Assembly (NCBI GenBank): GCA_049521795.1 | Contig: JBEKOM010000010.1 | Location: forward strand, 1 to 64,000 | Reading direction: 5' to 3' | From: Candidatus Bathyarchaeia archaeon | Lineage (GTDB): Archaea; Thermoproteota; Bathyarchaeia; Bathyarchaeales; Bathycorpusculaceae | DNA length: 64,000 nucleotides | In this document: piece by piece, positions 1 through 13,856 of the stretch | How the letters are laid out: each line of letters begins with the position of its first letter | How positions within the stretch are numbered: the stretch's first letter is position 1 | Notes under the pieces: model-generated | Databases searched by the model: none | Seen by the model: only the letters and a program-made list of their open reading frames with translations | What the model was told of the DNA's origin: nothing | Program-made: the position numbers and the translations under genes

Positions 1-278
1 AATTCAGTCATGAACTCTTTGTCTTGCATCAGTCTGTTCATGGCTTTTTCATAATCCATCAGGTTCTCAAACTCCCACATCTCTACATACCCGCCCGAAA
101 TGCCACCATACAGGTGAGCGAATAGCTTCCATGATTTTACCTCTTTGAACAAGTCTGCACGTTTTTTTGTCCATTCGACATACTTCTTGGCGAGTTCTGC
201 ATACTCACCAAGTTTATCTGGCTTCACGACGTATGTTTCTACCACGAAAACGGTCGTTCTTTCACCCCCCTTTTTCAA
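1..278 (-). CDS. NIPSNAP-like/dimeric alpha-beta barrel protein, 3' end runs off the window
   Basis: Manual translation (not in ORF track): MKKGGERTTVFVVETYVVKPDKLGEYAELAKKYVEW...GGYVEMWEFENLMDYEKAM; in-frame TTG at 278; GGGGTGA SD-like motif at 263-269. Confidence 0.7.
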   Translation of the reverse strand, partial: MKKGGERTTVFVVETYVVKPDKLGEYAELAKKYVEWTKKRADLFKEVKSWKLFAHLYGGISGGYVEMWEFENLMDYEKAMNRLMQDKEFMTE

Positions 279-303
279 TACTAAGTGAACGATGTCCGTT
301 CGT

Positions 304-338
304 TTCGTTTATAACTTTTCCGCAAAATCGAAAAACGG
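304..338. repeat. ~35-bp intergenic repeat, copy 1
   Basis: TTCGTTTATAACTTTTCCGCAAAATCGAAAAACGG; consensus of copies TTCGGCTATAACTTTTCCGCAAAAYCAAAAACTRG. Confidence 0.9.
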
Positions 339-345
339 ACTACTC

Positions 346-882
346 TCAAGCGGTTTTTGTTAGTATTTTTGGTTCTTTCCATTCTTCTCCGAGTATACTG
401 TAGATATAGGCATCCCTCCATTCTCCTCTCATGAAAAAGCTTTTGCGAAGCGTTCCTTCCTTCTTAAACCCAACTTTCTCTAAGACTTTGTGAGAGGCTA
501 CGTTTCTCGGGTCAGTTTGGGCTTGAACACGTTTTGTGTCTTTTGAGAGAAACAAGTAATCCACCATTATCTGTGTAGCTTCGGTGCCGTAGCCTTTTCC
601 TCTCTCACTTGGCACCAAACTATAGCCGATTTCCAGTTGCTTACCCGCAACATGCAGGACATAAAAATGACCTATGAAACCAATCTTGCTTCCGTCCTTT
701 CTCTCTATGATGAATGACTTCTCTTCATGAGGACCCTCAAACATCTTTTCTGCTTCTGTTCTGGACACCTGATGCAGAGGATTGTATTCACCAAAGACCT
801 CAGGCTTGTTGAACCATTCTGCAATTAGTGGCAAATCCTCTTTCTCCACAACCCTCAAATTGATATTCTTGCCTTCAAGCAA
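346..882 (-). CDS. GNAT N-acetyltransferase, RimJ/RimL family
   Basis: EIGYSLVPSERGKGYGTEA acetyl-CoA motif; NVASHKVLEKVGFKKEG. Confidence 0.92.
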   Translation of the reverse strand: MLEGKNINLRVVEKEDLPLIAEWFNKPEVFGEYNPLHQVSRTEAEKMFEGPHEEKSFIIERKDGSKIGFIGHFYVLHVAGKQLEIGYSLVPSERGKGYGTEATQIMVDYLFLSKDTKRVQAQTDPRNVASHKVLEKVGFKKEGTLRKSFFMRGEWRDAYIYSILGEEWKEPKILTKTA

Positions 883-912
883 CCCAATTCACCAATCCAT
901 AGTTGCTCGGGG

Positions 913-947
913 TTCAGCTATAACTTTTCCGCAAAATCAAAAACTAG
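913..947. repeat. ~35-bp intergenic repeat, copy 2
   Basis: TTCAGCTATAACTTTTCCGCAAAATCAAAAACTAG; contains the stop codon (937-939) of the upstream gene. Confidence 0.9.
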
Positions 948-1254
948 TCTTGTTTCTTTTTCGGTCTCTTTCTCTCACATAGTCCCAGTATTCGCTTGGT
1001 ATTCTTTCGTTTTCTGTTGCAGTCATTTCAAATATCTGAACTATATCCTTCATCTTGTCGTTGAAAACAGATTGCAAGCAACTTGGAATGTGCTTCTTGA
1101 AGTATCTGTGCTGTGCAACACATTTCTTGCAATCACCATGCCATTCACACTTGGTGTTCGGGCAACTGCACTTCAAATTATCTGGATTCGCTAAGATAGA
1201 GCGTATTTCTTTGATTTTCTCGTAGTATTGTTCTTTTGTCATTTTGGTTTGCAC
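937..1254 (-). CDS. Small Cys/His-rich putative metal-binding protein (DUF6485-like)
   Basis: CSCPNTKCEWHGDCKKCVAQHR...HIPSC pattern. Confidence 0.7.
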   Translation of the reverse strand: MQTKMTKEQYYEKIKEIRSILANPDNLKCSCPNTKCEWHGDCKKCVAQHRYFKKHIPSCLQSVFNDKMKDIVQIFEMTATENERIPSEYWDYVRERDRKRNKTSF

Positions 1255-1272
1255 ATAATTTGGTGGTCTGAA

Positions 1273-1307
1273 TTCGGCTATGACTTTTCCGCAAAACCAA
1301 AAACTGG
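1273..1307. repeat. ~35-bp intergenic repeat, copy 3
   Basis: TTCGGCTATGACTTTTCCGCAAAACCAAAAACTGG. Confidence 0.9.
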
Positions 1308-1424
1308 CTTAGAAGTCCCAGAATCCTCTTCTCTTTTTCTTTTTGCCAGCGTCCTTCCACTTCTTTCTCCAAGTCTTTCTGTTACGCGCGCGCACTGAGG
1401 TGGTATTTTTCTGTATGATTGAGA

Positions 1425-1502
1425 ATGACAAAATGTGAGCATTGCGGAGTAGAAGTGGAACTTCCTTTTGAGTGTAACTTTTGCGGTGGTTACTTTTGCT
1501 AG
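1425..1502 (+). pseudogene. Truncated AN1-like zinc finger
   Basis: MTKCEHCGVEVELPFECNFCGGYFC* matches the AN1 N-terminal half; it stops in a (TAGC)n tract before the expected H..PE.H.C half. Confidence 0.65.
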
Positions 1503-1526
1503 CGCTAGCTAGCTGGCTAGCTAGCT

Positions 1527-2069
1527 CTAACTTACGTCTGTCACCATTATGATATCATCTACATACTTCCCGTTCCAGTAAACGGCTTTCGGGATTCTTC
1601 CCGTTTCATTGAAACCTAGCTTTCTATACAGGGTTATTGCTGGAAGATTTGTCTCGTTGACTTGCAGGGTGACAATCTTTAGCCCTTGCTTCTTTCCTTC
1701 ACTCAGTAGCTTTTCTATCAGTCTGGTGCCAATTCCTATTCTTCTGGAACCAGATTTCACAACTATTCCCATTGTCCCCACATGGCTCTGTCGACCCACA
1801 TGCCTTCTGACTTCTGCGTTGCCAACAACTTCTCCATCAATCTCTGCTATGAATTGAACTGTCTCACCTCGTTTTATTTCACCAAGACGTTTAGGCAAGA
1901 ATTCTACTTCTTCTGCTCTGCTGAGTTCAGTCATCCTATTGATAGGGGCACATTCTCTGACGGTGGAGTTAACCAACTCCAACAAGCCATCCAAGTCTTC
2001 CAATCTCAGTTCTCTGACAACAACAGCTCTGCCATCTTTAGCGATGAACTCAGACATCCGAAGCCCCAA
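1527..2069 (-). CDS. GNAT N-acetyltransferase
   Basis: MGIVVKSGSRRIGIGTRLI; NLPAITLYRKLGFNETG. Confidence 0.92.
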   Translation of the reverse strand: MGLRMSEFIAKDGRAVVVRELRLEDLDGLLELVNSTVRECAPINRMTELSRAEEVEFLPKRLGEIKRGETVQFIAEIDGEVVGNAEVRRHVGRQSHVGTMGIVVKSGSRRIGIGTRLIEKLLSEGKKQGLKIVTLQVNETNLPAITLYRKLGFNETGRIPKAVYWNGKYVDDIIMVTDVS

Positions 2070-2212
2070 CTCCTTTCCAGAAGCGTGTCCTAGAAGGGAT
2101 AAATCCTTTACTCCATTTAACCATTAATCAGGAGTAACAGCGAAGTCCCTAGTATTGGTTAATTGGAGAAAACTTTAACCCCCAAACCAAATGGCTGTTA
2201 GCTAGCTAGCTG

Positions 2213-2248
2213 TTCGTCTAAAACTTTTCCGCAAAACACTAAAAACTG
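2213..2248. repeat. ~35-bp intergenic repeat, copy 4
   Basis: TTCGTCTAAAACTTTTCCGCAAAACACTAAAAACTG. Confidence 0.85.
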
Positions 2249-2319
2249 ATTCACAAAATATGTCAAAACCACAGAATAGAAAAACGCTAACGCACAGACA
2301 AAAAACAGCTAGCTAGAAA

Positions 2320-2577
2320 CTAGGACGGGTGCGATGGTTGCCCTTTATTGGTTCGCCACGCTTCAACATACATGCCGATAGATAAGCCGCCTAGAAGACC
2401 CAGAACGGTGCAAATCATTGCTACTTCGAATATTATAAGAGGTCCGTCTTGACCTAACTGGAGGTGGTTCTCAAAGTAGGAATAGGAGTATGCACTCGAT
2501 AAGATTGCCATAAAGACCAAAATGATTCCAGCCACTAGGAAAATTACTCTTGCTGGTTTATGTGGTGTGGCTCCCAT
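2320..2577 (-). CDS. Small two-TM membrane protein
   Basis: Two hydrophobic helices; ATG start; co-oriented with neighbours. Confidence 0.6.
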   Translation of the reverse strand: MGATPHKPARVIFLVAGIILVFMAILSSAYSYSYFENHLQLGQDGPLIIFEVAMICTVLGLLGGLSIGMYVEAWRTNKGQPSHPS

Positions 2578-2632
2578 GATTTATGCCCATCTAGGCAATT
2601 TGGAACCTCAGTTATTTAAGTTAGAATGTGCG

Positions 2633-2653
2633 TTCCGCAAAACCAAAAACTGG
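2633..2653. repeat. Intergenic repeat, partial copy 5
   Basis: TTCCGCAAAACCAAAAACTGG, identical to the right part of copy 3. Confidence 0.8.
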
Positions 2654-2870
2654 CCCATAAAGAATATGTCGAAAGAGTAGAACATAAAAACAAGAAATGA
2701 ATGAAAAGAAAGTGATGGTATGACATGGTTCTGCTGTCTTTAACTCTTCTTTGGCTTTCTAAGCGCGCGCGCCAGACTGAACTCTTCTGCGAGAGCTTTC
2801 GCTGCCGCGCGCGCTTATATACTGTCACAGGTTACAATTAAGAATAAACAGGTTTTTGGAGGTGAGTGAA

Positions 2871-3311
2871 ATGTCTGAGGAAAAGATTGAAAGTGTCATA
2901 CGTGGTTGGCGTGCGGCGCTTGAGAAAAAGGATGTGGAAAAGGCGCTTTCCTTCGTCGCAGAAGATGCAGTCTGGACGAATGATGAGGGCACGTTCAAAG
3001 GCAAGCAGGAGTGGAGACGGTACTTAACCTGGATGGCAACGTTTGGTGAAGGAAAGTTCAAGGACGCAGGAATTGGGATCATGACGAAGGGAAACAAGGC
3101 TGTTAGCCAGTATACTCTGGAAGGCAAAACCACAGATGGCATGAAAATTGAAGTGCCTGGTGTGTGCCTGTACGAATTCAAGAATGAAAAAATCCAGCAA
3201 CATTACACGATTTCGGATAGGCTTTTGCTTGCTAAACAAGCAGCTAAGGGAACGGTCGCAAGAAGATTGGTGGGCTCTCTAGTGAAGCGTATGGAAAAGG
3301 GATTGCAATAG
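2871..3311 (+). CDS. SnoaL/NTF2-like protein
   Basis: ALEKKDVEKALSFVAEDAVW...GTFKGKQE...GVCLYEFKNEKI; GGAGGTGA SD before ATG 2871. Confidence 0.85.
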   Translation: MSEEKIESVIRGWRAALEKKDVEKALSFVAEDAVWTNDEGTFKGKQEWRRYLTWMATFGEGKFKDAGIGIMTKGNKAVSQYTLEGKTTDGMKIEVPGVCLYEFKNEKIQQHYTISDRLLLAKQAAKGTVARRLVGSLVKRMEKGLQ

Positions 3312-3533
3312 GACAGGCGAAGCAAAAAAGGAATTTCATAGCTGAAAGCGCGTCGTCACTTATGCGTCCGCTACATAGCTTTTCTTTCTCTTTTTTGCAT
3401 CAAACTAATAACTCACTTTTTGCGGTTTTGTCACTACAAACCGTGATTTTTCTTGAGGCTCAATTCTCGTTGTTTTCTGTTTCGTTCTTCTTGTCTGTGT
3501 GCGTGTGTGTTTTTTTTATTTGTTTGTTTTTTT

Positions 3534-3690
3534 AGAGAGAGTGAGTGAGAGAGTGAAGGGTAGAGAGTAGTAGAGTAAGCGTAAGAAAATGAGAGAGAGA
3601 AAGGGGTAAAGTTTTATCCCGCACACTTCTACTACTCACTCTCACTCACTCTCTACCTATTATCTCTCTAACAATTACACTCTCTCTATT
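3534..3690. repeat. Low-complexity imperfect inverted repeat (AG-rich arm, CT-rich arm) centred on GGGGTAAAGTTTTATCCC
   Basis: AGAGAGTGAGTGAGAG on the left pairs with CTCTCACTCACTCTCT on the right; centre at 3603-3620. Confidence 0.7.
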
Positions 3691-3757
3691 GCAGAAAGCG
3701 CGCGCTAAATTCAAACTTCAAAACGAGGATTTGAACCCTGCCCTGACTAGGGGTTGA

Positions 3758-3786
3758 TGGTAGCCCGGGAGAGATTCGAACTCTCG
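3758..3786 (-). other. tRNA 3'-end fragment (Gln-type), att-like
   Basis: Minus strand CGAGAG-TTCGAAT-CTCTC-CCGGGCT-A-CCA: T-arm, acceptor 3' strand and CCA; A1-U72 acceptor typical of archaeal tRNA-Gln; no 5' half adjacent. Confidence 0.8.
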
Positions 3787-4029
3787 GCTTTGAAGAATGC
3801 GAGTTTTGGCGTGCTCGTCTATTAGTTTGGGTGAGTGGGACTTGAACCCGTTTGGGTTCAAATTCCTCCGGACCAGCGTTAAGACCGATCGCCGGTTAAC
3901 AAATCCTTTCAGGATAAATTTCTATGCGGATACCTACCAGTCCACTTCCGTTTGGGTTCTAGTCCCCACCTACTCGTTTCGTAATGAGCCAGATCGCCAA
4001 GGCTATTGAAGCACAGAAAAAAGACAATT

Positions 4030-4071
4030 GGACTCGACCCCTTTTGGGTACGGGTCCCGGCGGGCCCGCCA
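4030..4071 (+). other. Degenerate tRNA 3'-end fragment (Arg-type)
   Basis: ...GGGTACGGGTCCCGG-CGGGCCC-G-CCA; eroded T-loop. Confidence 0.55.
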
Positions 4072-4135
4072 CTATTTGGGTAGCACGCGCGAGGATTTGC
4101 TCTGCTACAAGGTTCCAGCAAAACCGGTTTAGCCG

Positions 4136-4540
4136 TCATCTTTCTCCTTTTAGCCAGCCCTTAATTCCGAGTTCTCTTACCGTTATTGTTACTGGTTCCA
4201 CTTCAAGTGACCTATACTTGCCGTTCTCATCGAGATACAATATCGTCGGTTTCAGAGCGAAAGTGTCCTGAACTTTTGACTTGAGAACGAGTTTTACTTC
4301 TTCAGCCTTTAAGGGATCAAGTCCATTTCCCTTCATGTTGACAAAGCTGTCTTCCACTCTGCACGTTTCGGGTTTTTGGTTCAACTCGAAACCTTCGGGG
4401 ACTACTTCATTGACTTTGATTAGCAGCGGGGGTCTTTTTCCAGCATTTACAAGCTCCATTTATAGGTCAAGCAGTTCGTCGATCTTCGGTTTCTTTAGCG
4501 TGCGCTCGATAAAGCTGTTTGCTGGCATGCCTTCCGGGCT
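4136..4540 (-). pseudogene. C-terminal Ig-like fragment paralogous to the 57619-60993 protein
   Basis: ELVNAGK...LDPLKAEEVKLVLK...ELGIKGWLKGER vs ELVNAGK...LDPLKTEEVKLVLK...ELGIKGWLRGEK; in-frame stop just upstream of 4459; N-terminal ~1000 aa absent. Confidence 0.85.
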
Positions 4541-4802
4541 CGCCCAGTCTCCATAAGTTGCAGGGGCAGACTTGATCTTTGCACTCTGCTCTCAATGTTG
4601 GTATTCCTTCGGAAGCTTCCCGAAAAGGAAGGTTGAAAACGCGACGAGAATTGCTTGAATCTTGTTTCGAGGCTATCACTTGCATTCGAAACTGTTCGAT
4701 CAGGAATTTAATTATAGAAAGATGTTTCACAAGTTTTAAATATGCAAAAATAGAAAGAGCACTCTCAAGTTTCTAAGCGGAGCAGGGAAGGAGAAGGAAA
4801 AG

Positions 4803-7800
4803 ATGAAGAGAGTGGGAGAGGAAGCGCTAGTTTTACTTCTTATAACCGTGTTGTGTGTATCAATTCTGATGTCCGCGAATTTGATCAAGATCTTCCCAGT
4901 TCACGCTTCGACTTTCTTGAAAACTTGGGGAAGCTATGGTTCGGGTATAGGTGAATTCAACAATCCAACTGCCGTGGCAGTTGATAGCTATGGACACGTG
5001 TACGTTGCGGACGCTGGAAACAATCGGGTTGAGGAGTTTGACAATGATGGTGACTTTGTTGCTCAGTTTGGAGGTGTCGGGTCTGGTACTGGCCAGTTTG
5101 GTTGGACCTGCGGGGTTGCTGTTGACGCTTATGGTGACGTTTACGTTTCAGATTGGACCAACTCGCGTATCGTGGAGTTCAGCGAGGGCAATCTAACGTG
5201 GGGCACCTTCGGAAGTGGGCCAGGCGAGTTGGAGGGCCCATTGGGTATTGCGGTCGACACGAATGGTTTCATCTACGTCTTGGACAGTCAGTATGGTACT
5301 AACAACCGTGTTGAGAAGTTTGATTATTCTGGTACCTTTATAACTCAGTTTGGAAGTGCCGGTTCTGGTCCTAGTCAATTTAATGGCTCGTTCGGAGTTA
5401 CAGTTGACAATTATGGTAATGTCTACGTTCCAGACTACAACAATTCTCGTGTTGTGAAGTTTGGTGTTGATAGCACTACTTCAAGCTGGGGTACCTTCGG
5501 AACTGGTCCGGGACAACTCTACAATCCTATGTACGCCGCTATTGACGATCTTGGATATGTCTACCTAACAGACAATTACAACTCTCGCGTTGAGAAGTTC
5601 GATAGCACTGGCAACTACATAACTGAACTTGGAAGCTACGGTACGGGTGACGGTCAGTTCCGTGCCCCTGAAGGAATCGCTGTTGACGGTTCTGGCGACG
5701 TCTTCGTGGCAGACGCTGCTAACAACCGCATTGACAAATTCCTGTTACCAAACCCTCCGGTAAGGTTTGTCATAGATTCCGTTTCCGAAGGCTCTCCCGT
5801 GGCCGGACAGCCTTTTGATGTTATCGTAACCGCAACTGACGTGTTTGGAAACGTAGTTACGGGTTACGCTGGTACGGTGCATTTCTCGTGCAGCGACAGC
5901 TTAGCCGTTCTGCCTAGCGATTACACCTTTCAGACTGATGACAACGGCGAGCATACGTTTTCGGTGACTTTTGACGCTGCTGGTACGCAGACACTTAACG
6001 TGTGGGATACGCTTGATCCGTCGATTTTCGGATCAAATTCTTGGACTGTTCTTGGGCTGACTGTTGTTAACGTGGAGACTGATGTACCCCCAAGCTCTGA
6101 CTGGAACTACATCATCACAGTTGTCAACTCGCAAATGGAGGTCGCTCCAGGAACTGTAATTGAAAACTTTACTCTTCCAGCTGGCGGCGGCAACATAACA
6201 TTCTCAGACCCAGTGTTCTTGGAAGGCGGCGTCTTTAACATAACTGCGGCCTCCAAGTTTGAATACACCACAGAGATATCTACCCAACAATATGACGACT
6301 ACAGCTCCTCTGTTATCGAAGATCTCAATGCGACCCTTTACCTTCACGAGTATTCGGCTATGACAGTAACTTTCGCTAATGCCTTTGTGGGGGCCTTCAC
6401 GACTCAGCCATTGGGGTCGGCTCCTCCCAGCGGCATAAACTTTTCCATTCCAGCTAATCAACCATACCCTATTCAAGCCGCTTGGAACGTCACATTAAAA
6501 AATGACGGCAGAATCGATCTTGTTGTCAATAAGACCATGGCCATACTAGTTAACTTCACCCGACCAATGCAGTCAGGGCAAGCTGTCAACGTCACCGTGA
6601 CATTTAACGGAACAACCTACGGACAGGTCGTTCAACAAAGTGCTTTAGCCCAAAACAGCGTAATCATCTTCCAACCCATAATACCGAAATACAATGGAAC
6701 CATGACTATAACCGGCACATACCAAATAGGAACCTCAGCAAACCCAAGCTCTCTAACTGGGAACCCAACCTCTCTAGCCAGCACTGCCGTCACAGTCAAA
6801 GACACTATGATCCTGCCTATTTACTTCTACTCCCTAACCAATTCCAACTATGGGTCAGTAAACGCGACAGACATCACACAAATGGTGGGAAACACTACAG
6901 CCTTCATCAATGCAACCTATCCAGTCAAGAACGTCGCTGTTAGCGCATCTACCACCACCATCGCAGGCAGCGCCGCATCTAACAGTCCAAGCAAGTTTCA
7001 AGGAATAATCAATGACTGTATAGCTATAAGTACGCAGGCTGCGAAATCAAGTTACGGCAAAGCTACACGCGGCATTGGGATAGGACCAAACAACGGTCCT
7101 GGCCAAGACTATTTCACCTACCACGGTGCACCAGGAGGGGCTGGCTTTACGGTGAATCCAAACTGTCACGGTGTGGTCGTGCTGGACGGCTACTACACCG
7201 CAGCGGCCCATGAAGTTGGGCACACTTTTGGTCTGAACTGGCCCCCCACATCGGAAGAATATGTTACGTATCCCCTGAATGGAAAAGCCACCAGCGGCAT
7301 TTGGCCAGCGCAAAATCAGTGGAGAACGGGCTACGATATTATGGGCACAGCACCTTACAGAACACTGGACCTAACATGGATCGATAGCACCTCGTACGCA
7401 CAACTGCTTAGCATGACCAAAGCGGCAGGAAATGATCCTCCATTACTAATAGTGTCAGGCCTAATCTACAAGGATGGCACCGTCGTACTGCCTCAAACCT
7501 GGTACCAACTGCAATCCGGCGTTCCCGACACTGTAGTGCCTGGAAATTACGCCCTCCAATTCTATGACTCCAGCGGAAGACTTATTTCAACAACCAGTTT
7601 CGACGCTCCTTTCTACGTGCAGATCGACCCCGGAGTTACCGTGGGGCAGAACATGCCAGACCTTAGCAACTTCGGAACCGTGCAAACCGACGTGACAGGT
7701 TTTGCCTTCACAATTCCTTACCCACAGGGAACAGCGCAAGTGAACATTGTAGACAACACTAACCCAGGCAGTCCAATTGTTTTGAAGACGGTTTCGGCTA

Positions 7801-9080
7801 AGGACATAGTTTACGTCCCACCGCCCACTGTAAACATAACGTTCACAACGAACGGGATAGGAAGCGACACAAACAGCGCAACAGTGATGACCATAGACAG
7901 CATACCCTACGGTTACAGCCAACTGCAATCCCTCTCCGTCAACTGGGCGCCAGGCTCAAACCACACGATAACTGTTACCAACCCGGTGGCCGCTACCTAT
8001 GGAAAACAATATGCGTTCATAAACTGGACCAACGGAGACGGGCTAAAATCGGGAACGTCGAACTACACAGTACCAAATACTGACACCGTAGTCACAGCCA
8101 ACTTCAAAACTCAATTCCAACTAACAGTAACCACAAACCCAGTTGGTCTGACTCCTCGACCATGGGTCACGCCCTCTGGTACAGGCAGTGGAGGCACATG
8201 GTACGAAGCAAACACCAACGTCACTCTGATTGCTTCCCCCCTCGCCATAAACACTCTGAGCAACTGGTACACATTCAACTATTGGGTACTAGATGGGACA
8301 CCACAGAAAACAAACACCATTCAGCTAAAAATCAAAATGGATCAAGCTCACACAACAATCGCCAACTACGCTCACTTCAAGATGAAAGGGTATTTCACTG
8401 ACAGCAACTTCAATCCGATAAGCTCTTTCACCTGCATAACCGCGCCCAAGACAGGGACCGGCTACAAGATAAGCGCTACCTACCCAGCGACGTTTTACTA
8501 CAACCTGCAAATCACAAACAACGACCCAACTGGAACGTTTACAATTACAATGCTCGTCCCTTCAGACTTCGCCCTGACGCCACTCTCACCACGAGCTAGC
8601 CCAGTGCAAATCGACGGAAAACCCGTCACCTACTCAATCTCAAATCCTGGGGTACTCACTATTTCCAACGTCCAAATCAAACAAAACCAGATGATAACCA
8701 TATCGGTGCATCTGAAGTACACGGATTCCTATAGCAGCAAGGCCACGTTCTCAATAGATTATCCATTTATTGCGACGGTGAACCTTATACAGCTAACAAC
8801 CACCACCATCACCGCAGTCGGCAAACAAATGACCGCAATAGGAGGATTCATAACCAATAGCAACGGCGCGCCAAAGGCCGGACTCACAGTCACTGTCACA
8901 ACGCAGAACGGAATCGTTGGAACAGCTGTCTCAGCAAATGACGGGTCCTACTTCATTACGGTTCCAGCTGGAACCTACACCGTGACAATCACCAATTCAC
9001 TGAAGACTCAATTAGCCCAAGTCAAAAACGTCATAGTCACTCAAAATCAATTCGCAGAACAAGACTTCACGATCAAGTAG
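4803..9080 (+). CDS. Large secreted/surface protein: NHL beta-propeller, Ig-like domains, HEXXH metallopeptidase, C-terminal carboxypeptidase-regulatory-like domain
   Basis: Signal peptide; about six repeats of GxGxGQFxxPxGIAVDxxGxVYVAD; AAHEVGHTFGL; many N-x-S/T sequons. Confidence 0.85.
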   Translation: MKRVGEEALVLLLITVLCVSILMSANLIKIFPVHASTFLKTWGSYGSGIGEFNNPTAVAVDSYGHVYVADAGNNRVEEFDNDGDFVAQFGGVGSGTGQFGWTCGVAVDAYGDVYVSDWTNSRIVEFSEGNLTWGTFGSGPGELEGPLGIAVDTNGFIYVLDSQYGTNNRVEKFDYSGTFITQFGSAGSGPSQFNGSFGVTVDNYGNVYVPDYNNSRVVKFGVDSTTSSWGTFGTGPGQLYNPMYAAIDDLGYVYLTDNYNSRVEKFDSTGNYITELGSYGTGDGQFRAPEGIAVDGSGDVFVADAANNRIDKFLLPNPPVRFVIDSVSEGSPVAGQPFDVIVTATDVFGNVVTGYAGTVHFSCSDSLAVLPSDYTFQTDDNGEHTFSVTFDAAGTQTLNVWDTLDPSIFGSNSWTVLGLTVVNVETDVPPSSDWNYIITVVNSQMEVAPGTVIENFTLPAGGGNITFSDPVFLEGGVFNITAASKFEYTTEISTQQYDDYSSSVIEDLNATLYLHEYSAMTVTFANAFVGAFTTQPLGSAPPSGINFSIPANQPYPIQAAWNVTLKNDGRIDLVVNKTMAILVNFTRPMQSGQAVNVTVTFNGTTYGQVVQQSALAQNSVIIFQPIIPKYNGTMTITGTYQIGTSANPSSLTGNPTSLASTAVTVKDTMILPIYFYSLTNSNYGSVNATDITQMVGNTTAFINATYPVKNVAVSASTTTIAGSAASNSPSKFQGIINDCIAISTQAAKSSYGKATRGIGIGPNNGPGQDYFTYHGAPGGAGFTVNPNCHGVVVLDGYYTAAAHEVGHTFGLNWPPTSEEYVTYPLNGKATSGIWPAQNQWRTGYDIMGTAPYRTLDLTWIDSTSYAQLLSMTKAAGNDPPLLIVSGLIYKDGTVVLPQTWYQLQSGVPDTVVPGNYALQFYDSSGRLISTTSFDAPFYVQIDPGVTVGQNMPDLSNFGTVQTDVTGFAFTIPYPQGTAQVNIVDNTNPGSPIVLKTVSAKDIVYVPPPTVNITFTTNGIGSDTNSATVMTIDSIPYGYSQLQSLSVNWAPGSNHTITVTNPVAATYGKQYAFINWTNGDGLKSGTSNYTVPNTDTVVTANFKTQFQLTVTTNPVGLTPRPWVTPSGTGSGGTWYEANTNVTLIASPLAINTLSNWYTFNYWVLDGTPQKTNTIQLKIKMDQAHTTIANYAHFKMKGYFTDSNFNPISSFTCITAPKTGTGYKISATYPATFYYNLQITNNDPTGTFTITMLVPSDFALTPLSPRASPVQIDGKPVTYSISNPGVLTISNVQIKQNQMITISVHLKYTDSYSSKATFSIDYPFIATVNLIQLTTTTITAVGKQMTAIGGFITNSNGAPKAGLTVTVTTQNGIVGTAVSANDGSYFITVPAGTYTVTITNSLKTQLAQVKNVIVTQNQFAEQDFTIK

Positions 9081-9229
9081 CGGACACCACAATCTACAGT
9101 CACAAAAACAACCATGCAAACAAAACTAGACACGCGCGCCTCGCTGACCCGAACAAGAACTTCCCCATCAGCCAAGACGACAAAGAACCTGTAAACAAAA
9201 AATGATAAAAGAGGAGGTGAAAACCCAAG

Positions 9230-9649
9230 ATGAACAAAAAACTTTTCTTAGCCGGACTCCTGGCAATATCGGTAATTGCTCTTGGAACAGCATCTTTTGC
9301 CGGAGCTCAACTTGCTGACTATTACCCCGGACCTGTTAATTACACTATAACCAAGTGGATAGTAATCTGGTATTTCAAAACAGTTGACCAGTATGGCGGC
9401 GGCTCGTTCGATGGGAGAACTGTCATAAAGAGCACGGTCACTGCCTATGCCCTGGATGCCACTGGTAATTACAAGCCTGTAAAACCTCTCTGCATCCTTA
9501 CGACTAAAGACTATGTGATGCTCATTTTCCTTCCTAGTGCCCTCCCAGCCCATAATACGGATGGCAGTAGTGCCGTGACCGGAACATTAACTAATGGCCA
9601 AACATTCGACGCTACGGGCCCAGGCTGGTCTCTGATCACAATCCACTAA
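9230..9649 (+). CDS. Secreted hypothetical protein
   Basis: MNKKLFLAGLLAISVIALG signal peptide; GGAGGTGA SD. Confidence 0.8.
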   Translation: MNKKLFLAGLLAISVIALGTASFAGAQLADYYPGPVNYTITKWIVIWYFKTVDQYGGGSFDGRTVIKSTVTAYALDATGNYKPVKPLCILTTKDYVMLIFLPSALPAHNTDGSSAVTGTLTNGQTFDATGPGWSLITIH

Positions 9650-9659
9650 GCGCGCGCGA

Positions 9660-9895
9660 CCTACGCAACCGGCAACGTCATCGAGTCATCTTCGCCCGCC
9701 GTGGCAGACAACAACGTTCATCGGCTCCGACGACAATTACGTGTACGCTCTCAACCAACGCAACGGGAGACTATTATGGAGCCTCAAGACAGGAGGTTGG
9801 GCAGGAGAGTCTTCACCAGCCATCGCCGACAGAGTTCTGTACACAGGTTCACTGGATGGAAAAATATACGCGCGCTAACCGCGCGCTACTATATA
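9660..9895 (+). pseudogene. PQQ-like beta-propeller repeat remnant
   Basis: Frameshifted pieces TGNVIESSSPAVAD / GSDDNYVYALN / LWSLKTGG / SSPAIADRVLYTGSLDGKIYA. Confidence 0.7.
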
Positions 9896-10476
9896 TGGGA
9901 ATCTGAATCCAAGACTTCGAACCAAACTCTCACTTTTTTCTATCAATCGAACATTGATCATACGCGCGCTACTACTATGTTGAAAAGTGCGGGGGTTTAC
10001 GCAGGGTGGTAGTTGCTGGGGCTTCAGTATTTTCTCTTCGCGCGCCATATGGCTGGTATCTGCACCTAATTAGGTATGAATACCTGCGGGCCCGCCATCC
10101 ACGGTTGCGAATTTGTACCGTTTTCAGGGTGTCTGCCGTGTCGCAGCAAATTAGAGGCTTCGCTCAGTATTTGAATCTCACTGCTTTGGGTGTCTTCATG
10201 GTTGACAAAGGTTTTGACATGGCTATTTGCCGATGCCATCAAACATGTCTCCTTGCTTGCCGACGAGCGCCATGCAAATTGCAACGTATGATGCAAACTA
10301 TCATGTTCATCCTCGAGACATTTGCAACATGCGCGCACATATAAGGGGTTAATGTGAAATTGCATCAATGACAAATCCATTCTTCACGCCATCACAACAT
10401 CGCTTGTATCGCGCACTTTAGCGCGCGCGAAAAGTCTAATTAACAAGACGGCTAACTACTAATTGAATGGAAGGGG

Positions 10477-11181
10477 TTGCATATGGGTATTTTTGACAAG
10501 ATAAAGGAAGTTGACTTGATAACCGAGCTGTGTGAGCATCTTCGACAGATCGGTATAGAAGCAACAGTGTTGGATGTCAAGAGCCCCGAAGCCATACATC
10601 ACACTCCAACCATGCACATCATTTATAGCATAAAAAACATTCCCCCGCTGGGCTGCGTCAAGGTCGAAGGCCGAAACATCGACTTAGTAGAGGTATGTAG
10701 GTTCTTGGGAAGCGCAGGTGGCTTGAGTGGTAGCGCAAGCGCAGGTGGCTTCGGTGGTAGCGCAGGCCCGGGTGGTCCTCTCGCGACTTACAGGTACAAC
10801 TATATATTAAAGGCAAATGTGGGAAAACTGGAGGACAAGCTTAAGGCGGAGGCCGAACGGATCACGAAAGGTCTCCTCGGCAGGGAAATCATCGATTACA
10901 TGTGGTTGGGCGGAGAACTGGCGCAACTTTTGAACGCTGACACGGAACTGAAGAATATGCTGCTTGGATTTGGATCGCCAAAACTCATGGTACATCCTAA
11001 CAAGAAGCTTCAATATGTGGAGATAACGCCCATAGTTTCATCGACAAACATCGTGATTGGCGGAATTCCCATAAAGTACAATCTGACTGTGGGGAGAAAG
11101 GCGTTTCCAACCCGTGAAGCCTTCGAGGCCTACGACAGAATCGCTCAACACATACGAAGTATCCTAAGCTCTCAACCATAA
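10477..11181 (+). CDS. Hypothetical protein with a Gly/Ser linker
   Basis: 234-aa ORF; short tandem GGTAGCGCAGG-like repeats encode GSAGGLSGSASAGGFGGSAG. Confidence 0.7.
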   Translation: MHMGIFDKIKEVDLITELCEHLRQIGIEATVLDVKSPEAIHHTPTMHIIYSIKNIPPLGCVKVEGRNIDLVEVCRFLGSAGGLSGSASAGGFGGSAGPGGPLATYRYNYILKANVGKLEDKLKAEAERITKGLLGREIIDYMWLGGELAQLLNADTELKNMLLGFGSPKLMVHPNKKLQYVEITPIVSSTNIVIGGIPIKYNLTVGRKAFPTREAFEAYDRIAQHIRSILSSQP

Positions 11182-11281
11182 TTTCAAAGAAATAGAAGCA
11201 TGAGCTCGAAGTGCCGAAAGCGCCAATTCAGAGTGACAACATGCCCTTCCGTCGCAAGACCAATCTACCAGGCCATCATAT

Positions 11282-11539
11282 TTGGATCCAAATATCCATG
11301 GCACATTGAAACCGAGGAGGGGTACCCACCACCATCCCACCTCGGCACTCATGCAAAAAAGACTCACCGCCATCGCAGAAAAATACAGCGTCCACGTACA
11401 AAACGTCAGGTTCCAACTGATCCTCGAACTCAAAGCCCTAGCCGAACTCGCACAACAAAAAGCCAATGACACTCACCCAGCGAAAGAAGAAACCAAACAA
11501 AACTGGATCCACCTCGCCGCATACATCGCCAGGTCATAA
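11282..11539 (+). pseudogene. Probable gene fragment, helical hypothetical protein
   Basis: Helical, protein-like ELKALAELAQQKA...WIHLAAYIA that seems to continue (QVINK) after a frameshift. Confidence 0.35.
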
Positions 11540-11778
11540 ACAAATAGGCAAAACCATCAGCTCTGAAGCCATCTCAAGGATTACGTAGCGAATGGCTGTC
11601 ACACATTGGGTGCCAGAAGCGCGAATGAGAAAGCAATGGGGCCTGCCGCTATCATGTGGTCGTCGTAGAGGAATCCTGGTATAGAAGATTACTCCATAAG
11701 GGATTTATTCATAGAGAGAACTCATAAGGATGTGGAGAGGGAGAAGTAGAGGTAGGCTCAGAACAAGGAGGTGAACGT

Positions 11779-12018
11779 GTGGAGATTTCGATAAACGCAA
11801 AGCAGATAATCGCAGTGATTTGGACAATAATCGCTTTCGTAATATCACTAGTAATAGTGCTCGCACTGGGCTTTCCAGCGGCTGGTACGTCCAATGTCTT
11901 CGGTGGCCCATGGCAGTACTTGGTGGCATTGTTCTTCGGCCTCTTCTTGGTAATAACCGTTCCAGTCTACTTGCTCATAGCCCTTTGGCACATAGTTTCA
12001 AAGTGGGACACTACGTAG
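11779..12018 (+). CDS. Small two-TM membrane protein
   Basis: GGAGGTGA SD before GTG; two hydrophobic helices. Confidence 0.75.
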   Translation: MEISINAKQIIAVIWTIIAFVISLVIVLALGFPAAGTSNVFGGPWQYLVALFFGLFLVITVPVYLLIALWHIVSKWDTT

Positions 12019-12215
12019 GTCGCAGGACTGCCAGCGTGCAAGCGCTGTGTCAAACACGTCGCACTGAAGTGGGTTCTATCAAGATTTCACCACAAATTAA
12101 CGAAGATTCGCACACATTTCTCGACTTGTGAGTGCCTCTTTGTTCATCTGTGCGACATTTTTGAGAAACAATATACTCATGATCGGCTACTGAAGGACTA
12201 CTGCATAACAGATAA

Positions 12216-12461
12216 ATGAAACCTCTGACCTACAAAAGCTCGGGATGGAATTTGAGCCTTGACGAAATTGAGGCCTTCGCTAGTTCTTTGAAGAACTGTC
12301 CAAAATGCGGTTCAGAGGAAGGATTTTGGCTCGCCGCAAACCGCGAAAGGAGTTATGTCCAATGCAAGCACTGCGGAGCCATTTTAGAGTTTTGCGAGGT
12401 TCTATCACATCCAGAAAAGGCCAAAGGCTCAAAAAGTGCCTTCAGAAAACTGAAGCTATAA
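12216..12461 (+). CDS. Zinc-ribbon protein
   Basis: CPKCG...CKHCG. Confidence 0.75.
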   Translation: MKPLTYKSSGWNLSLDEIEAFASSLKNCPKCGSEEGFWLAANRERSYVQCKHCGAILEFCEVLSHPEKAKGSKSAFRKLKL

Positions 12462-12937
12462 CGTGAGAACTGAACGTTCTGCTTTTCTCTTCTCGAACAT
12501 GGTGGTTCACACGAAATCCAACGCACATTCGAGTTCTAAATGGTAACAGGCTTAAATGCCCGAGTTCTTGAGATGCTTGGGACCTCGGGCAAACGGAAAT
12601 CAAAGTCGCCTTCTCCTTTTCTTCCTCTCAGGTCAAAAGTTAACAATGTGTATCTTCATTAAAACGTTTACTGCACCGTTCAGTATATGTCACTTTTCTA
12701 CGTATATCCACTTTCCACTTCATTTCCAACGGGGCAATCTAGCGCGCGCAAAGCCTAGTCTCTTTTTTTCCGGCGTAGGCGACAAGCAAGATCTCTCCAG
12801 TTTCAGGAAGCAGGCGTCGCGGAAACTGTTCACGGCGCTCTCCTATTCGCATCTTCAAAAATGGTTGCGCGAAACATACAAATCGTTGCCAGAAAGTTTT
12901 TAGGCCCGCTCTTCGCTAAACTACTTGAGACTTATCG

Positions 12938-13855
12938 GTGGGCATGGCCATCAAAAGAGGCGTTATTTTTGATATCAAGAAATTCGCAATTGATGACGGA
13001 CCTGGGATACGCACAACCATATTCTTCAAGGGTTGCCTTCTGCGCTGCAGGTGGTGCCATAACCCTGAGGGTCAGCTACAGACACCGGAATTGATGTACA
13101 GAAGAACTAGGTGTGACGGCTGTGCCGAGTGCGTGGGGATCTGTCCGAAAGAGGCAATTTCATGCCCTCTCAAAAGAATATCCATAAACAGGAATCACTG
13201 CAATCTGTGCGGAGAATGTTGCCAGGTATGTCCAACAGGGGCCCTGGCGATTGTTGGAAAGCAAGTGAGCTTAGAAGAGGTCTTAAGAGAAATTGACAAG
13301 GACTCAATCTTCTACGATGAGTCAAAGGGCGGCGTGACAGTTTCTGGAGGAGAACCTCTCTTGCAACTCGATTTTCTAGACGCGCTTCTCAAAGAGTGCA
13401 AAGATAGAGACATTCGCACCGCAGTCGATACTTGTGGCTACGCCTCGCATGATGCCTTCGACAAAATCAGCAATAAGGTAGATCTTTTCCTGTATGACAT
13501 CAAGACTATGAATGGGAAAAAACATATGAAATACACAGGCGTGTCAAACAAGTCAATTCTCGAAAATCTCAAAAGATTAGCCGAAGATGGAAGTAACATT
13601 CAGATTCGTTTTCCCATTATCCCAGGAATCAACGATGACAAGGAAAACGTCACCGAGACAGCTGAATTTGTAGCTTCGTGCAGAATAAAGAACATGAGTC
13701 TTCTCCCTTACCACCGAGCGGGAATCGAGAAGTACAAGGGCCTAAGCAGGGCATACAAGCTGAAAAAGATCCAAACTCCATCTGACCAGGACCTAAATCT
13801 AATCAAAGAAGAACTCGAGGCTTTTGGGTTGAAAGTGAAGATAGGGGGAGGATAG
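12938..13855 (+). CDS. Glycyl-radical enzyme activating enzyme (radical SAM with ferredoxin insert)
   Basis: DGPGIRTTIFFKGCLLRCRWCHNPE; two CxxCxxCxxxCP; GGVTVSGGEP. Confidence 0.95.
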   Translation: MGMAIKRGVIFDIKKFAIDDGPGIRTTIFFKGCLLRCRWCHNPEGQLQTPELMYRRTRCDGCAECVGICPKEAISCPLKRISINRNHCNLCGECCQVCPTGALAIVGKQVSLEEVLREIDKDSIFYDESKGGVTVSGGEPLLQLDFLDALLKECKDRDIRTAVDTCGYASHDAFDKISNKVDLFLYDIKTMNGKKHMKYTGVSNKSILENLKRLAEDGSNIQIRFPIIPGINDDKENVTETAEFVASCRIKNMSLLPYHRAGIEKYKGLSRAYKLKKIQTPSDQDLNLIKEELEAFGLKVKIGGG

Positions 13856-13856
13856 C

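What the first reader, a model, noticed from the sequence alone, without database searches (positions are those of the whole stretch)
304..2653. Small-gene array punctuated by a conserved ~35-bp non-attC repeat (candidate gene-cassette system)
Seen: five same-orientation copies of TTCGGCTATAACTTTTCCGCAAAAYCAAAAACTRG (304, 913, 1273, 2213, partial 2633) sit among unrelated short minus-strand genes (NIPSNAP-like, two GNATs, a Cys-rich protein, a membrane protein). Copies 1-3 abut or contain a stop codon: 346 for copy 1, 937 inside copy 2, and a TAA at 1309 ending a remnant frame ...KKKKRRGFWDF* for copy 3. Established: GNATs and similar small genes are typical integron cassette cargo, but this repeat lacks the attC RYYYAAC/GTTRRRY cores and long hairpin. 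Inference: it is a recombination site marking cassette ends. Its core can be read as an imperfect 11-6-11 site (ATAACTTTTCC-GCAAAA-TCAAAAACTAG), like Xer/dif sites. On the gene strand it also supplies a T-rich terminator and a BRE/TATA-like GAAAAGTTATA, so each unit could express itself. The array probably continues left of the window.
Basis: partly seen in the sequence, partly recalled or inferred. Interest (0 to 1): 0.82.

Follow-up and report, generated by a model that had tools for sequence, protein, structure and literature searches.

The report
Promoter repeats joining swappable archaeal genes
The repeat is a ready-made promoter-plus-terminator spacer that sits between small accessory genes of a group of peat archaea (Bathyarchaeia), and comparison with related genomes shows that genes are swapped between genomes exactly at this spacer, much as in an integron but without its folded sites or a linked enzyme.

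Summary
In detail: four full copies and one truncated copy of a ~38-nt directional repeat lie between five small minus-strand genes (NIPSNAP-like, GNAT, Cys-rich, GNAT, membrane). On the gene strand it reads CCAGTTTTTGG-TTTTGCGGAAAAGTTATAGCTGAACC.

The 26-nt core looks like a complete archaeal BRE/TATA promoter. It lies 10-50 nt before a same-strand start codon in 145 of 230 instances, against 23 of 230 in the reverse control. The T-rich arm ends the upstream gene.

The repeat is almost confined to one Bathyarchaeia genus (9 of 10 relatives, up to 15 copies each). It sits mostly in same-strand arrays, in front of at least 64 unrelated protein clusters.

Between species, 94-99 % identical segments are single gene units whose homology stops at the core, and the neighbours differ. 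One two-gene block is 98 % identical between two species whose flanking core genes are 92-94 % identical, and it lies in a different context. The repeat is therefore both an expression module and the joint at which cassettes are shuffled.

It has no attC-like hairpin and no convincing Xer-type dyad. No recombinase lies beside this array, and the array does not continue to the left. Transcription and the recombination enzyme remain untested.

This scan has already reported similar promoter-bearing junction repeats in other Bathyarchaeia genomes. My literature searches found no description in print.

The parts
302..338 (-). Repeat copy 1: core 302-327 (gene strand TTTTGCGGAAAAGTTATAAACGAAAC) plus T-rich arm 328-338. 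It lies upstream of the NIPSNAP-like gene.
   Evidence: PWM 36.5
911..947 (-). Repeat copy 2: core 911-936 (consensus, PWM 44.7) plus arm 937-947. The arm holds the TGA stop of the Cys-rich gene. It lies upstream of GNAT1.
1271..1307 (-). Repeat copy 3: core 1271-1296 plus arm 1297-1307. It lies upstream of the Cys-rich gene.
   Evidence: PWM 37.0
2211..2290 (-). Repeat copy 4, long form: core 2211-2236, arm 2237-2249 and an upstream extension to about 2290. GNAT2 starts only 141 nt after the core, behind a GCTAGCTAGC junction.
   Evidence: (PWM 36.8)
2633..2702 (-). Repeat copy 5, truncated inside the core: only TTTTGCGGAA (2633-2642) is left, with arm 2643-2653 and the long-form extension 2654-2702. 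It is the head of the array, upstream of the membrane gene.
3..278 (-). NIPSNAP-like gene, last unit of the array. Its 3' end lies on contig C11, giving 115 aa in all.
346..882 (-). GNAT1 (Acetyltransf_3, 178 aa), TTG start behind GGTGA. 89-91 % identical units lie in three other species, with different neighbours.
937..1254 (-). Cys-rich protein (weak DUF6485 match). No DNA match in the 10 genus genomes. Relatives at 83-87 % amino-acid identity lie in metagenome contigs with other neighbours.
1309..1526 (-). Decayed spacer or remnant unit: 40-aa frame 1309-1431, GCGCGCGC at 1386, CTAG palindromes at 1501-1527.
1527..2069 (-). GNAT2 (Acetyltransf_1, 180 aa), flanked by CTAGCTAG palindromes and preceded by a second promoter-like element at about 2165-2188. 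No match in the genus genomes.
2320..2577 (-). 85-aa membrane protein with no Pfam family. One 84 % DNA match in a genus genome, elsewhere in that genome.

Best explanation
The repeat is the standard joint between single-gene accessory cassettes of one genus of peat and wetland Bathyarchaeia. Its 26-nt core (TTTTGCGGAAAAGTTATAGCTGAACC on the gene strand) reads as a complete core promoter: an A-rich BRE, a TATA box and a proximal GAACC element. It would start a short leader carrying GGTGA in front of the next gene. The T-rich arm before it (CCAGTTTTTGG) closes the previous gene, sometimes supplying its stop codon, and probably acts as an oligo-U terminator. Each unit is therefore self-expressing and insulated. 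Because every unit carries the same core, recombination with its crossover inside the core excises, inserts, replaces and exchanges units within and between species, which gives integron-like arrays. Shown here: the anatomy, direction and spacing of the repeat, its genus-wide distribution, the variety of cargo, homology breaks at the core, and higher identity of units than of the surrounding core genome in the one pair of species tested. Inferred: promoter and terminator activity, and the enzyme. I think homology-dependent recombination between cores is the most likely motor. A trans-acting site-specific recombinase is not excluded.
For: Promoter reading. tRNA genes of the same genome carry (C)GAAA(A)G + TTAAAT/CTATATC/TTAAAGCC boxes, one of them followed by AAACC. 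A review states that a TATA box is 7-8 bp with an adjoining A-rich BRE, and that poly-U suffices for termination (PMC7289017, passages). A start codon lies 10-50 nt after the core in 145 of 230 instances, against 23 of 230 on the reverse side. The upstream stop codon peaks 11-20 nt before the core. Conservation is confined to -10..+28.

Arrays. Of 96 neighbouring pairs closer than 2.5 kb, 91 are on the same strand.

Cargo. 173 downstream proteins fall into 64 clusters. They include GNAT, DUF4760, DinB, SnoaL, HD, HIT, creatininase, EamA, a deaminase, 2H phosphoesterases and PNPOx.

Shuffling. GNAT1 units at 89-91 % identity in three other species have four different neighbour sets. Among 34 distinct inter-genome segments of at least 93 % identity, 66 of 68 ends have no collinear continuation, 44 of those 66 ends lie at a core, and 14 segments have a core at both ends. 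Of the 44 ends that lie within 150 nt of a core, 21 of 24 unit 5' ends map to -14..+4, while 13 of 20 unit 3' ends map to +12..+28 and 7 of 20 to -26..-11. Eight hand-picked pairs show the switch inside or at the edge of the core.

Exchange. Flanking core genes are 92-94 % identical between G001 and G002, but a two-unit block is 98 % identical and sits on another contig. Between G001 and G000 the figures are 88-90 % for the core and 94-95 % for unit pieces.

Strain level. In runs X3 and X4 a contig matches window 1-327 with 2 substitutions and 1 deletion, then differs at 9 listed positions in 328-349, directly beyond the core.
Against: No transcript data: no RNA run holds the locus, so promoter and terminator activity are inferred. 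24 of 68 homology ends have no core within 150 nt, so not all rearrangements use the core. 36 of 230 cores have no ORF of 60 aa or more starting within 300 nt, for example the core after the last cassette in L013, which faces a convergent gene. A pure promoter does not explain these. In the one clean indel (L074 against L094) the inserted two-gene block is not followed by a core. In four peat runs the pieces that carry this strain's array show the same order as the window, and I saw no alternative junction or circle for it; those runs are contigs only. The 26-nt identity across species is more than TBP/TFB binding needs, which leaves room for a sequence-specific protein. The excess identity of units over core genes was checked for one query genome against two others only, and the instances were ascertained with a matrix built from the repeat itself.
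Confidence: 0.6

Rival explanations
1. A dedicated site-specific recombination system, integron-like or Xer/dif-like. A recombinase, probably of the tyrosine type, would recognise the core and move cassettes through circular intermediates. The promoter reading would then be secondary or coincidental.
For: Homology breaks concentrate at the core. The core is conserved beyond what a BRE/TATA needs. Orphan cores occur at array ends. One tyrosine-recombinase cluster (PF00589, E 9.5e-14 for the member scanned) lies 0.2-2.5 kb from arrays in 7 distinct loci, and two further PF00589-type clusters lie in about 7 more.
Against: No recombinase lies beside the window's array. Of the 10 PF00589 matches in G000, only the two on C7 are within 5 kb of a copy. 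The array-associated recombinase family is found at E <= 1e-20 in 5 of 10 genus genomes. It is not found in G000, G005 or G008, which hold 15, 5 and 10 motif hits. There is no hairpin. The proposed dyad is 5-6 of 11 and its left arm is poorly conserved. In the eight pairs read by eye, the sequence switch falls at different places in and around the core.
Confidence: 0.2
2. An ordinary regulon. The repeat would be a promoter with an operator for one transcription factor that controls small stress or detoxification genes. The shuffling would simply reflect that these genes lie in flexible islands, and the core would take no part in recombination.
For: The partial palindrome TTTTGCGGAAAA overlaps the BRE. 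Lrp/AsnC-type (12 distinct) and ArsR-type (11 distinct) HTH genes recur in the loci, and some are divergent from the first core of an array, as in L086, L045 and L102. The cargo looks like detoxification and modification enzymes.
Against: Breakpoints fall at the core far more often than its share of the spacer would give. Cores occur without a downstream gene. Units are more similar between species than the flanking core genes. The window's array has no HTH neighbour. At least 64 unrelated clusters across genomes is unusual for one regulon.
Confidence: 0.15
3. A by-product of paralogy. The repeat would be conserved only because GNAT genes were duplicated together with their upstream and downstream DNA.
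For: GNATs are the largest cargo class (57 of 173). Several arms share the GNAT 3' end (CTTGAAGAAAGCCAG).
Against: 116 of 173 downstream proteins are not in that cluster and fall into 63 other clusters. Conservation stops at +28, before the leader and the coding region.
Confidence: 0.03

Closest known systems
Integron cassette arrays and CALINs, including archaeal integrons (PMC9668308; passages read)
   Same: Same-direction arrays of small, unrelated, mostly single-gene units separated by one conserved site. Units are found in different contexts in different genomes. The cargo is similar (acetyltransferases, small enzymes, unknowns). Most arrays have no adjacent integrase, as in CALINs.
   Different: The joint is a 26-nt duplex-type sequence with no single-strand hairpin. 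It reads as a promoter, so cassettes are not promoterless units driven from one Pc. No IntI or attI lies at the array. The paper's main text does not mention Bathyarchaeia (0 occurrences); its supplementary taxon lists could not be seen.
Putative mobile promoters, or promoter reuse in prokaryotes (PMC3575422, main text read; the NAR 2012 paper it cites was not read)
   Same: Near-identical upstream sequence in front of unrelated genes within and between genomes, with an unknown mobilisation mechanism.
   Different: Those were defined as at least 80 % identity over at least 50 nt at -150..-50 in complete genomes. They mostly occur as pairs, with no array layout and no evidence that the promoter is the recombination joint. 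The element here is about 38 nt, lies at about -70 to -30 from the start codon, and is arrayed.
Earlier follow-ups of this scan on other Bathyarchaeia and archaeal genomes (e1-2075545, e1-1498658, e1-2557881)
   Same: Promoter-like, one-orientation junction repeats between variable single-gene units.
   Different: They concern other genomes and other repeat sequences; my sequence look-ups found no shared words with them. They are AI notes and not independent evidence.
dif/pdif modules moved by XerC/XerD (recalled, not checked in a paper here)
   Same: Short conserved sites bracket small gene modules that move between contexts.
   Different: Those sites are clear 11-6-11 inverted repeats used by a housekeeping recombinase. 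Here the dyad is weak and one arm is poorly conserved.

Membership tests
Integron / CALIN | attC site: imperfect palindrome that folds as single-stranded DNA, with R/L boxes | tested here: not met
   Eight folds of the four spacers (both strands): z -1.66 to +1.19 against 200 shuffles. IntegronFinder was not available.
Integron / CALIN | intI (tyrosine recombinase with the IntI-specific domain) and attI at the array head | tested here: not met
   None of the 10 PF00589 matches of G000 is on C10 or at the C11 end. The gene divergent from the array head is a SnoaL-like gene. The IntI-specific domain of recombinases near other arrays was not tested.
Integron / CALIN | Discrete cassettes found in different contexts, with junctions at the site | tested here: met
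   14 inter-genome segments (94.3-98.9 % identity, 280-1310 nt) have a core at both ends; 66 of 68 ends lack collinear continuation; alignments.
Archaeal core promoter (BRE/TATA) | 7-8 bp TATA box with an adjoining A-rich BRE, oriented towards the gene | tested here: met
   GGAAAAG + TTATAGC. The same architecture is seen upstream of tRNA genes of this genome. Definition from PMC7289017. Directionality: 145 of 230 against 23 of 230.
Archaeal core promoter (BRE/TATA) | Transcription starts about 20-30 nt downstream of the TATA box | not testable with these tools
   No listed run is on record as RNA.
Xer/dif-type site | Two 11-nt inverted arms around a 6-8 nt spacer, both conserved | tested here: not met
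The left arm carries 0.2-1.2 bits per position against 1.4-1.96 in the first 20 positions of the core.
Putative mobile promoters | At least 80 % identity over at least 50 nt upstream of unrelated genes | tested here: not met
   The conserved span is about 38 nt (-10..+28). A long form of about 85 nt exists in 11 of 230 instances. The concept fits but the operational length threshold does not.
Single-regulator regulon operator | A dedicated transcription factor that binds the site and co-occurs with it | not testable with these tools
   HTH genes recur near arrays, but binding and co-distribution were not tested.

The most novel reading that the evidence does not exclude
A gene-capture system in which the attachment site is a core promoter. 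An as yet unidentified enzyme, or the transcription pre-initiation complex itself acting as a recombination hot spot, would exchange self-expressing single-gene cassettes between Bathyarchaeia species at TTTTGCGGAAAAGTTATAGC. This would be an archaeal counterpart of the integron that solves expression and mobility with one 26-nt element.
Probability: 0.2. Interest if true: 0.85.

Novelty: new variant of a known kind. Interest (0 to 1): 0.62.

Why it matters
Bathyarchaeia are abundant, uncultured carbon-cycling archaea, and little is known of how their accessory genes are expressed and exchanged. A portable promoter-terminator joint that also serves as the crossover point would explain how small detoxification and modification genes are traded between species in peat. 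It would also explain why these regions break metagenome assemblies: 4 of the 15 strong copies in this genome lie within 400 nt of a contig end. It gives a simple sequence tag for finding flexible gene pools in MAGs, and a candidate strong, compact promoter for future genetics in this lineage.

Tried and rejected
RNA evidence: the look-up of sequencing runs listed 24 holders and none is on record as RNA, so expression is untested.

Population structure: the four runs laid are Logan contigs only. For this strain's pieces I saw no contig that joins the array in another order and no circle. The listed 'joints' have sides of 22-44 nt at depths far above the genome's and are other motif contexts in the metagenome. 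Raw reads were not on offer.

Indel screen: an all-against-all search for empty or occupied sites gave 6 candidates, of which only L074/L094 was informative.

RNA and tRNA searches: Rfam at gathering threshold found 0 matches in window 1-12000. ARAGORN found 0 tRNAs in window 1-14000 and in the C11 end.

Viral link: the 20-mer occurs in 1 stretch of the viral contig collection, which is not enough to name a vector.

Recombinase link: checked and not supported as a general partner.

Palindromes as a general junction mark: GCGCGC or GCTAGC-type words lie within 40 nt downstream of only 8 of 230 cores and upstream of 12 of 230.

Literature: five searches found no description of this element. From those listings I opened only PMC9668308 (passages), PMC3575422 (main text) and PMC7289017 (passages). 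Supplementary files were not opened; the taxon tables of PMC9668308 could bear on whether classical integrons occur in Bathyarchaeia.

Not used: structure prediction, complex prediction, the protein atlas and the large protein searches, because the question concerns DNA.
Full report
WHAT IS THERE. The window is the first 64 kb of contig C10 of a 2.44-Mb, 69-contig assembly. Earlier notes of this scan on the same genome, and the record titles of look-alike contigs, place it in Bathyarchaeia. Between 1 and 2702 five minus-strand genes follow each other. In gene-strand order they are an 85-aa membrane protein, GNAT2, a Cys-rich protein, GNAT1 and a NIPSNAP-like protein. In front of each lies a copy of one repeat. 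On the gene strand the consensus is CCAGTTTTTGG-TTTTGCGGAAAAGTTATAGCTGAACC(GAAA). Four copies are full (cores at 302-327, 911-936, 1271-1296, 2211-2236). The fifth, at the head of the array, is cut inside the core: only TTTTGCGGAA at 2633-2642 and the arm remain.

THE ARRAY IS BOUNDED. The last 46 bases of contig C11 are identical to the first 46 of C10. Joined through that overlap, the NIPSNAP-like gene is complete (115 aa). To its left lie about 650 nt of non-coding DNA and then plus-strand genes. The array therefore does not run on to the left.

GENOME AND LINEAGE. A position weight matrix of the 26-nt core finds 15 strong copies in the genome (score 29.8 or more) and three weaker ones (C3 59210, C1 552701, C14 18001). 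In total 36 hits exceed score 12, against 8 in a shuffled genome. Four strong copies lie within 400 nt of a contig end. In 40 relatives the 20-mer (up to 2 mismatches) occurs in 9 of 10 genomes of the same genus (1-15 hits each), in 3 of 14 genomes of other genera of the family (1-2 hits), and in 1 of 16 of the order. The reversed-pattern control gives 0-1 hits. An exact scan of one genome per species found 111 stretches. 80 were listed, and 75 of those are titled Bathyarchaeia or Bathyarchaeota. The viral collection holds 1 stretch.

ANATOMY ACROSS 230 INSTANCES. Conservation is confined to -10..+28 relative to the core start. The arm is weaker (0.2-1.2 bits per position), and nothing is conserved beyond. 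The core values are inflated, because the instances were selected with the matrix. A same-strand ORF of at least 60 aa starts within 300 nt in 194 of 230 instances. The start lies 10-50 nt after the core in 145 of 230, against 23 of 230 on the reverse side. The stop of the upstream same-strand gene peaks 11-20 nt before the core (38 cases). Of 96 neighbouring pairs closer than 2.5 kb, 91 are co-oriented, with a modal spacing near 600 nt, which is one small gene. Eleven instances, including window copies 4 and 5, carry a further ~45-nt upstream extension, a long form.

PROMOTER READING (INFERRED). tRNA genes of this genome are preceded by (C)GAAA(A)G followed by TTAAAT, CTATATC or TTAAAGCC, in one case followed by AAACC. 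This is the layout of GGAAAAG-TTATAGC-TGAACC. A review gives TATA as 7-8 bp with an adjoining A-rich BRE, and short poly-U as sufficient for archaeal termination (PMC7289017, passages). With the start codon about 40 nt after the TATA box and GGTGA 7-12 nt before it, the core would give a leader of about 15 nt. The TTTTTGGTTTT of the arm is a plausible terminator for the gene before it. No RNA run holds the locus, so this remains inference.

CARGO. 173 downstream proteins fall into 64 clusters: GNAT 57, DUF4760 membrane proteins 20, a second membrane family 8, and many singletons. Pfam names include NIPSNAP, DinB, DUF4037/nucleotidyltransferase, creatininase, DsrE-like, SnoaL, HD, EamA, dCMP deaminase, HIT, 2H phosphoesterases and PNPOx. 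Several clusters have no family.

SHUFFLING. Window 1-11200 has no syntenic counterpart in the 10 genus genomes; only single units match. GNAT1 with its core is 89-91 % identical in three other species. Its neighbours there are respectively another GNAT and a convergent TIM-barrel gene, a membrane protein and a 445-aa protein, and a DUF4760 protein and a 108-aa protein. In the window they are the Cys-rich and NIPSNAP genes. The Cys-rich protein has relatives at 83-87 % amino-acid identity in six metagenome contigs. Five have a core-like box directly upstream (matrix score 15.6-28.9), and all six have different neighbours.

In an all-against-all comparison of 147 loci (131 distinct regions), 34 distinct inter-genome segments of at least 93 % identity are internal to both loci. 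66 of their 68 ends have no collinear continuation within 600 nt. 44 of those ends lie at a core and 22 do not. 14 segments (94.3-98.9 % identity, 280-1310 nt) have a core at both ends. Of the 44 ends that lie within 150 nt of a core, 21 of 24 unit 5' ends map to -14..+4 of the core, while 13 of 20 unit 3' ends map to +12..+28 and 7 of 20 to -26..-11; 24 ends have no core within 150 nt. Eight hand-picked alignments show what this means. Identity starts at TTTTGCGG, runs through the leader, the gene and the arm, and ends in or just after the next core, while the arm before and the leader after are unrelated.

EXCHANGE BETWEEN SPECIES. A 13-kb locus of G001 has flanks that are syntenic and 92-94 % identical in G002 and 88-90 % identical in G000. 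Its array is absent from those sites: G000 has an 805-aa ORF there and no core. Two of its units are found 98 % identical on another contig of G002, and pieces are 94-95 % identical at two contig ends of G000. Units more alike than the surrounding core genome, and in other places, point to recent transfer. This comparison was made for one query genome against two others only.

STRAIN LEVEL. In four peat runs (contigs only) the pieces carrying this strain's sequence keep the window's order. In two runs a more abundant contig matches 1-327 with 2 substitutions and 1 deletion, and then differs at 9 listed positions in 328-349, directly beyond core 1. That fits a different unit joined at that core, but the contig ends at 381.

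MECHANISM. There is no attC-like fold. The 11-6-11 reading pairs at only 5-6 of 11 positions, and its left arm is the weakly conserved part. G000 has 10 PF00589 matches, and only the two on C7 lie within 5 kb of a copy. One tyrosine-recombinase cluster does recur 0.2-2.5 kb from arrays in 7 distinct loci. As a query, however, it is found at E <= 1e-20 in only 5 of 10 genus genomes, and not in G000, G005 or G008, which carry many copies. In the eight pairs the switch point varies within and around the core. I therefore favour homology-dependent recombination between the shared cores and keep a trans-acting site-specific enzyme as the main rival. Orphan cores, the 22 ends away from a core, and the L074/L094 indel without a terminal core show that the picture is not clean.

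COMPARISON AND NOVELTY. In outcome this is integron-like, and specifically CALIN-like. It fails the defining tests for attC and intI/attI, and its cassettes appear to carry their own promoter. The nearest published concept is the 'putative mobile promoter' (PMC3575422), which has no array layout or joint function and uses a longer length threshold. Five literature searches found no description of this element. This scan has already reported comparable promoter-bearing junction repeats in other Bathyarchaeia and in an ammonia-oxidising archaeon. Those notes agree with this reading but are not independent evidence. I rate it a new variant of a known kind.

Noticed in passing
whole genome; window 1386, 2763, 2765, 2807, 3698: The octamer GCGCGCGC occurs 408 times in contigs of at least 14 kb, against about 31 expected from a third-order Markov model. 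In some loci it abuts a core edge directly (L019 4897, L023 5003, L016 10799, G000 C4 133426). An earlier first-reader note on this genome proposed it as a marker of rearrangement junctions.
   Followed up: partly
window 1505, 1517, 2202, 2309: Four of the genome's 13 CTAGCTAG words lie here. This palindrome gives a stop codon in all six frames. They flank GNAT2 on both sides and follow the membrane gene, so GNAT2 looks like an insertion of a different kind placed right after core 4.
   Followed up: partly
window 2165-2188 (minus), 3480-3660; C11 end (about -600 to -450 in window terms); G000 C3 166119 and 185803, C1 486907, C7 29023: A second repeated promoter-like element, GGTTGG..GGGGTAAAGTTTTATCC, often followed by a long CT/CA low-complexity leader.
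   Followed up: no
window 3700-3900, minus strand: Several tRNA-like T-arm and acceptor ends, one ending in CCA. ARAGORN and Rfam call nothing here.
   Followed up: partly
window 11277-11324: A 48-nt stretch with 91-96 % identical copies scattered through every genome of the genus (many rows). It lies inside or beside a gene that is 89 % identical in G001.
   Followed up: no
window 4136-4459 (minus): A 107-aa ORF with no Pfam family that is multi-copy in G000 and in all larger genus genomes (about 70 % DNA identity).
   Followed up: no
G000 C10 start, C5 start, C14 start, C15 start; similar in G002, G004, G006, G011, G016: Contigs of several assemblies end within a few hundred bases of a repeat copy, which suggests that these arrays break metagenome assembly.
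   Followed up: partly
L027 2406-4600, L094 4615-5760, L116 3-1274, L132 4229-5443, G000 C7 73.6-76 kb: A family of tyrosine recombinases of about 380-430 aa sits at the downstream end of some arrays. In L027 a core precedes a 219-aa gene and then the recombinase.
   Followed up: partly
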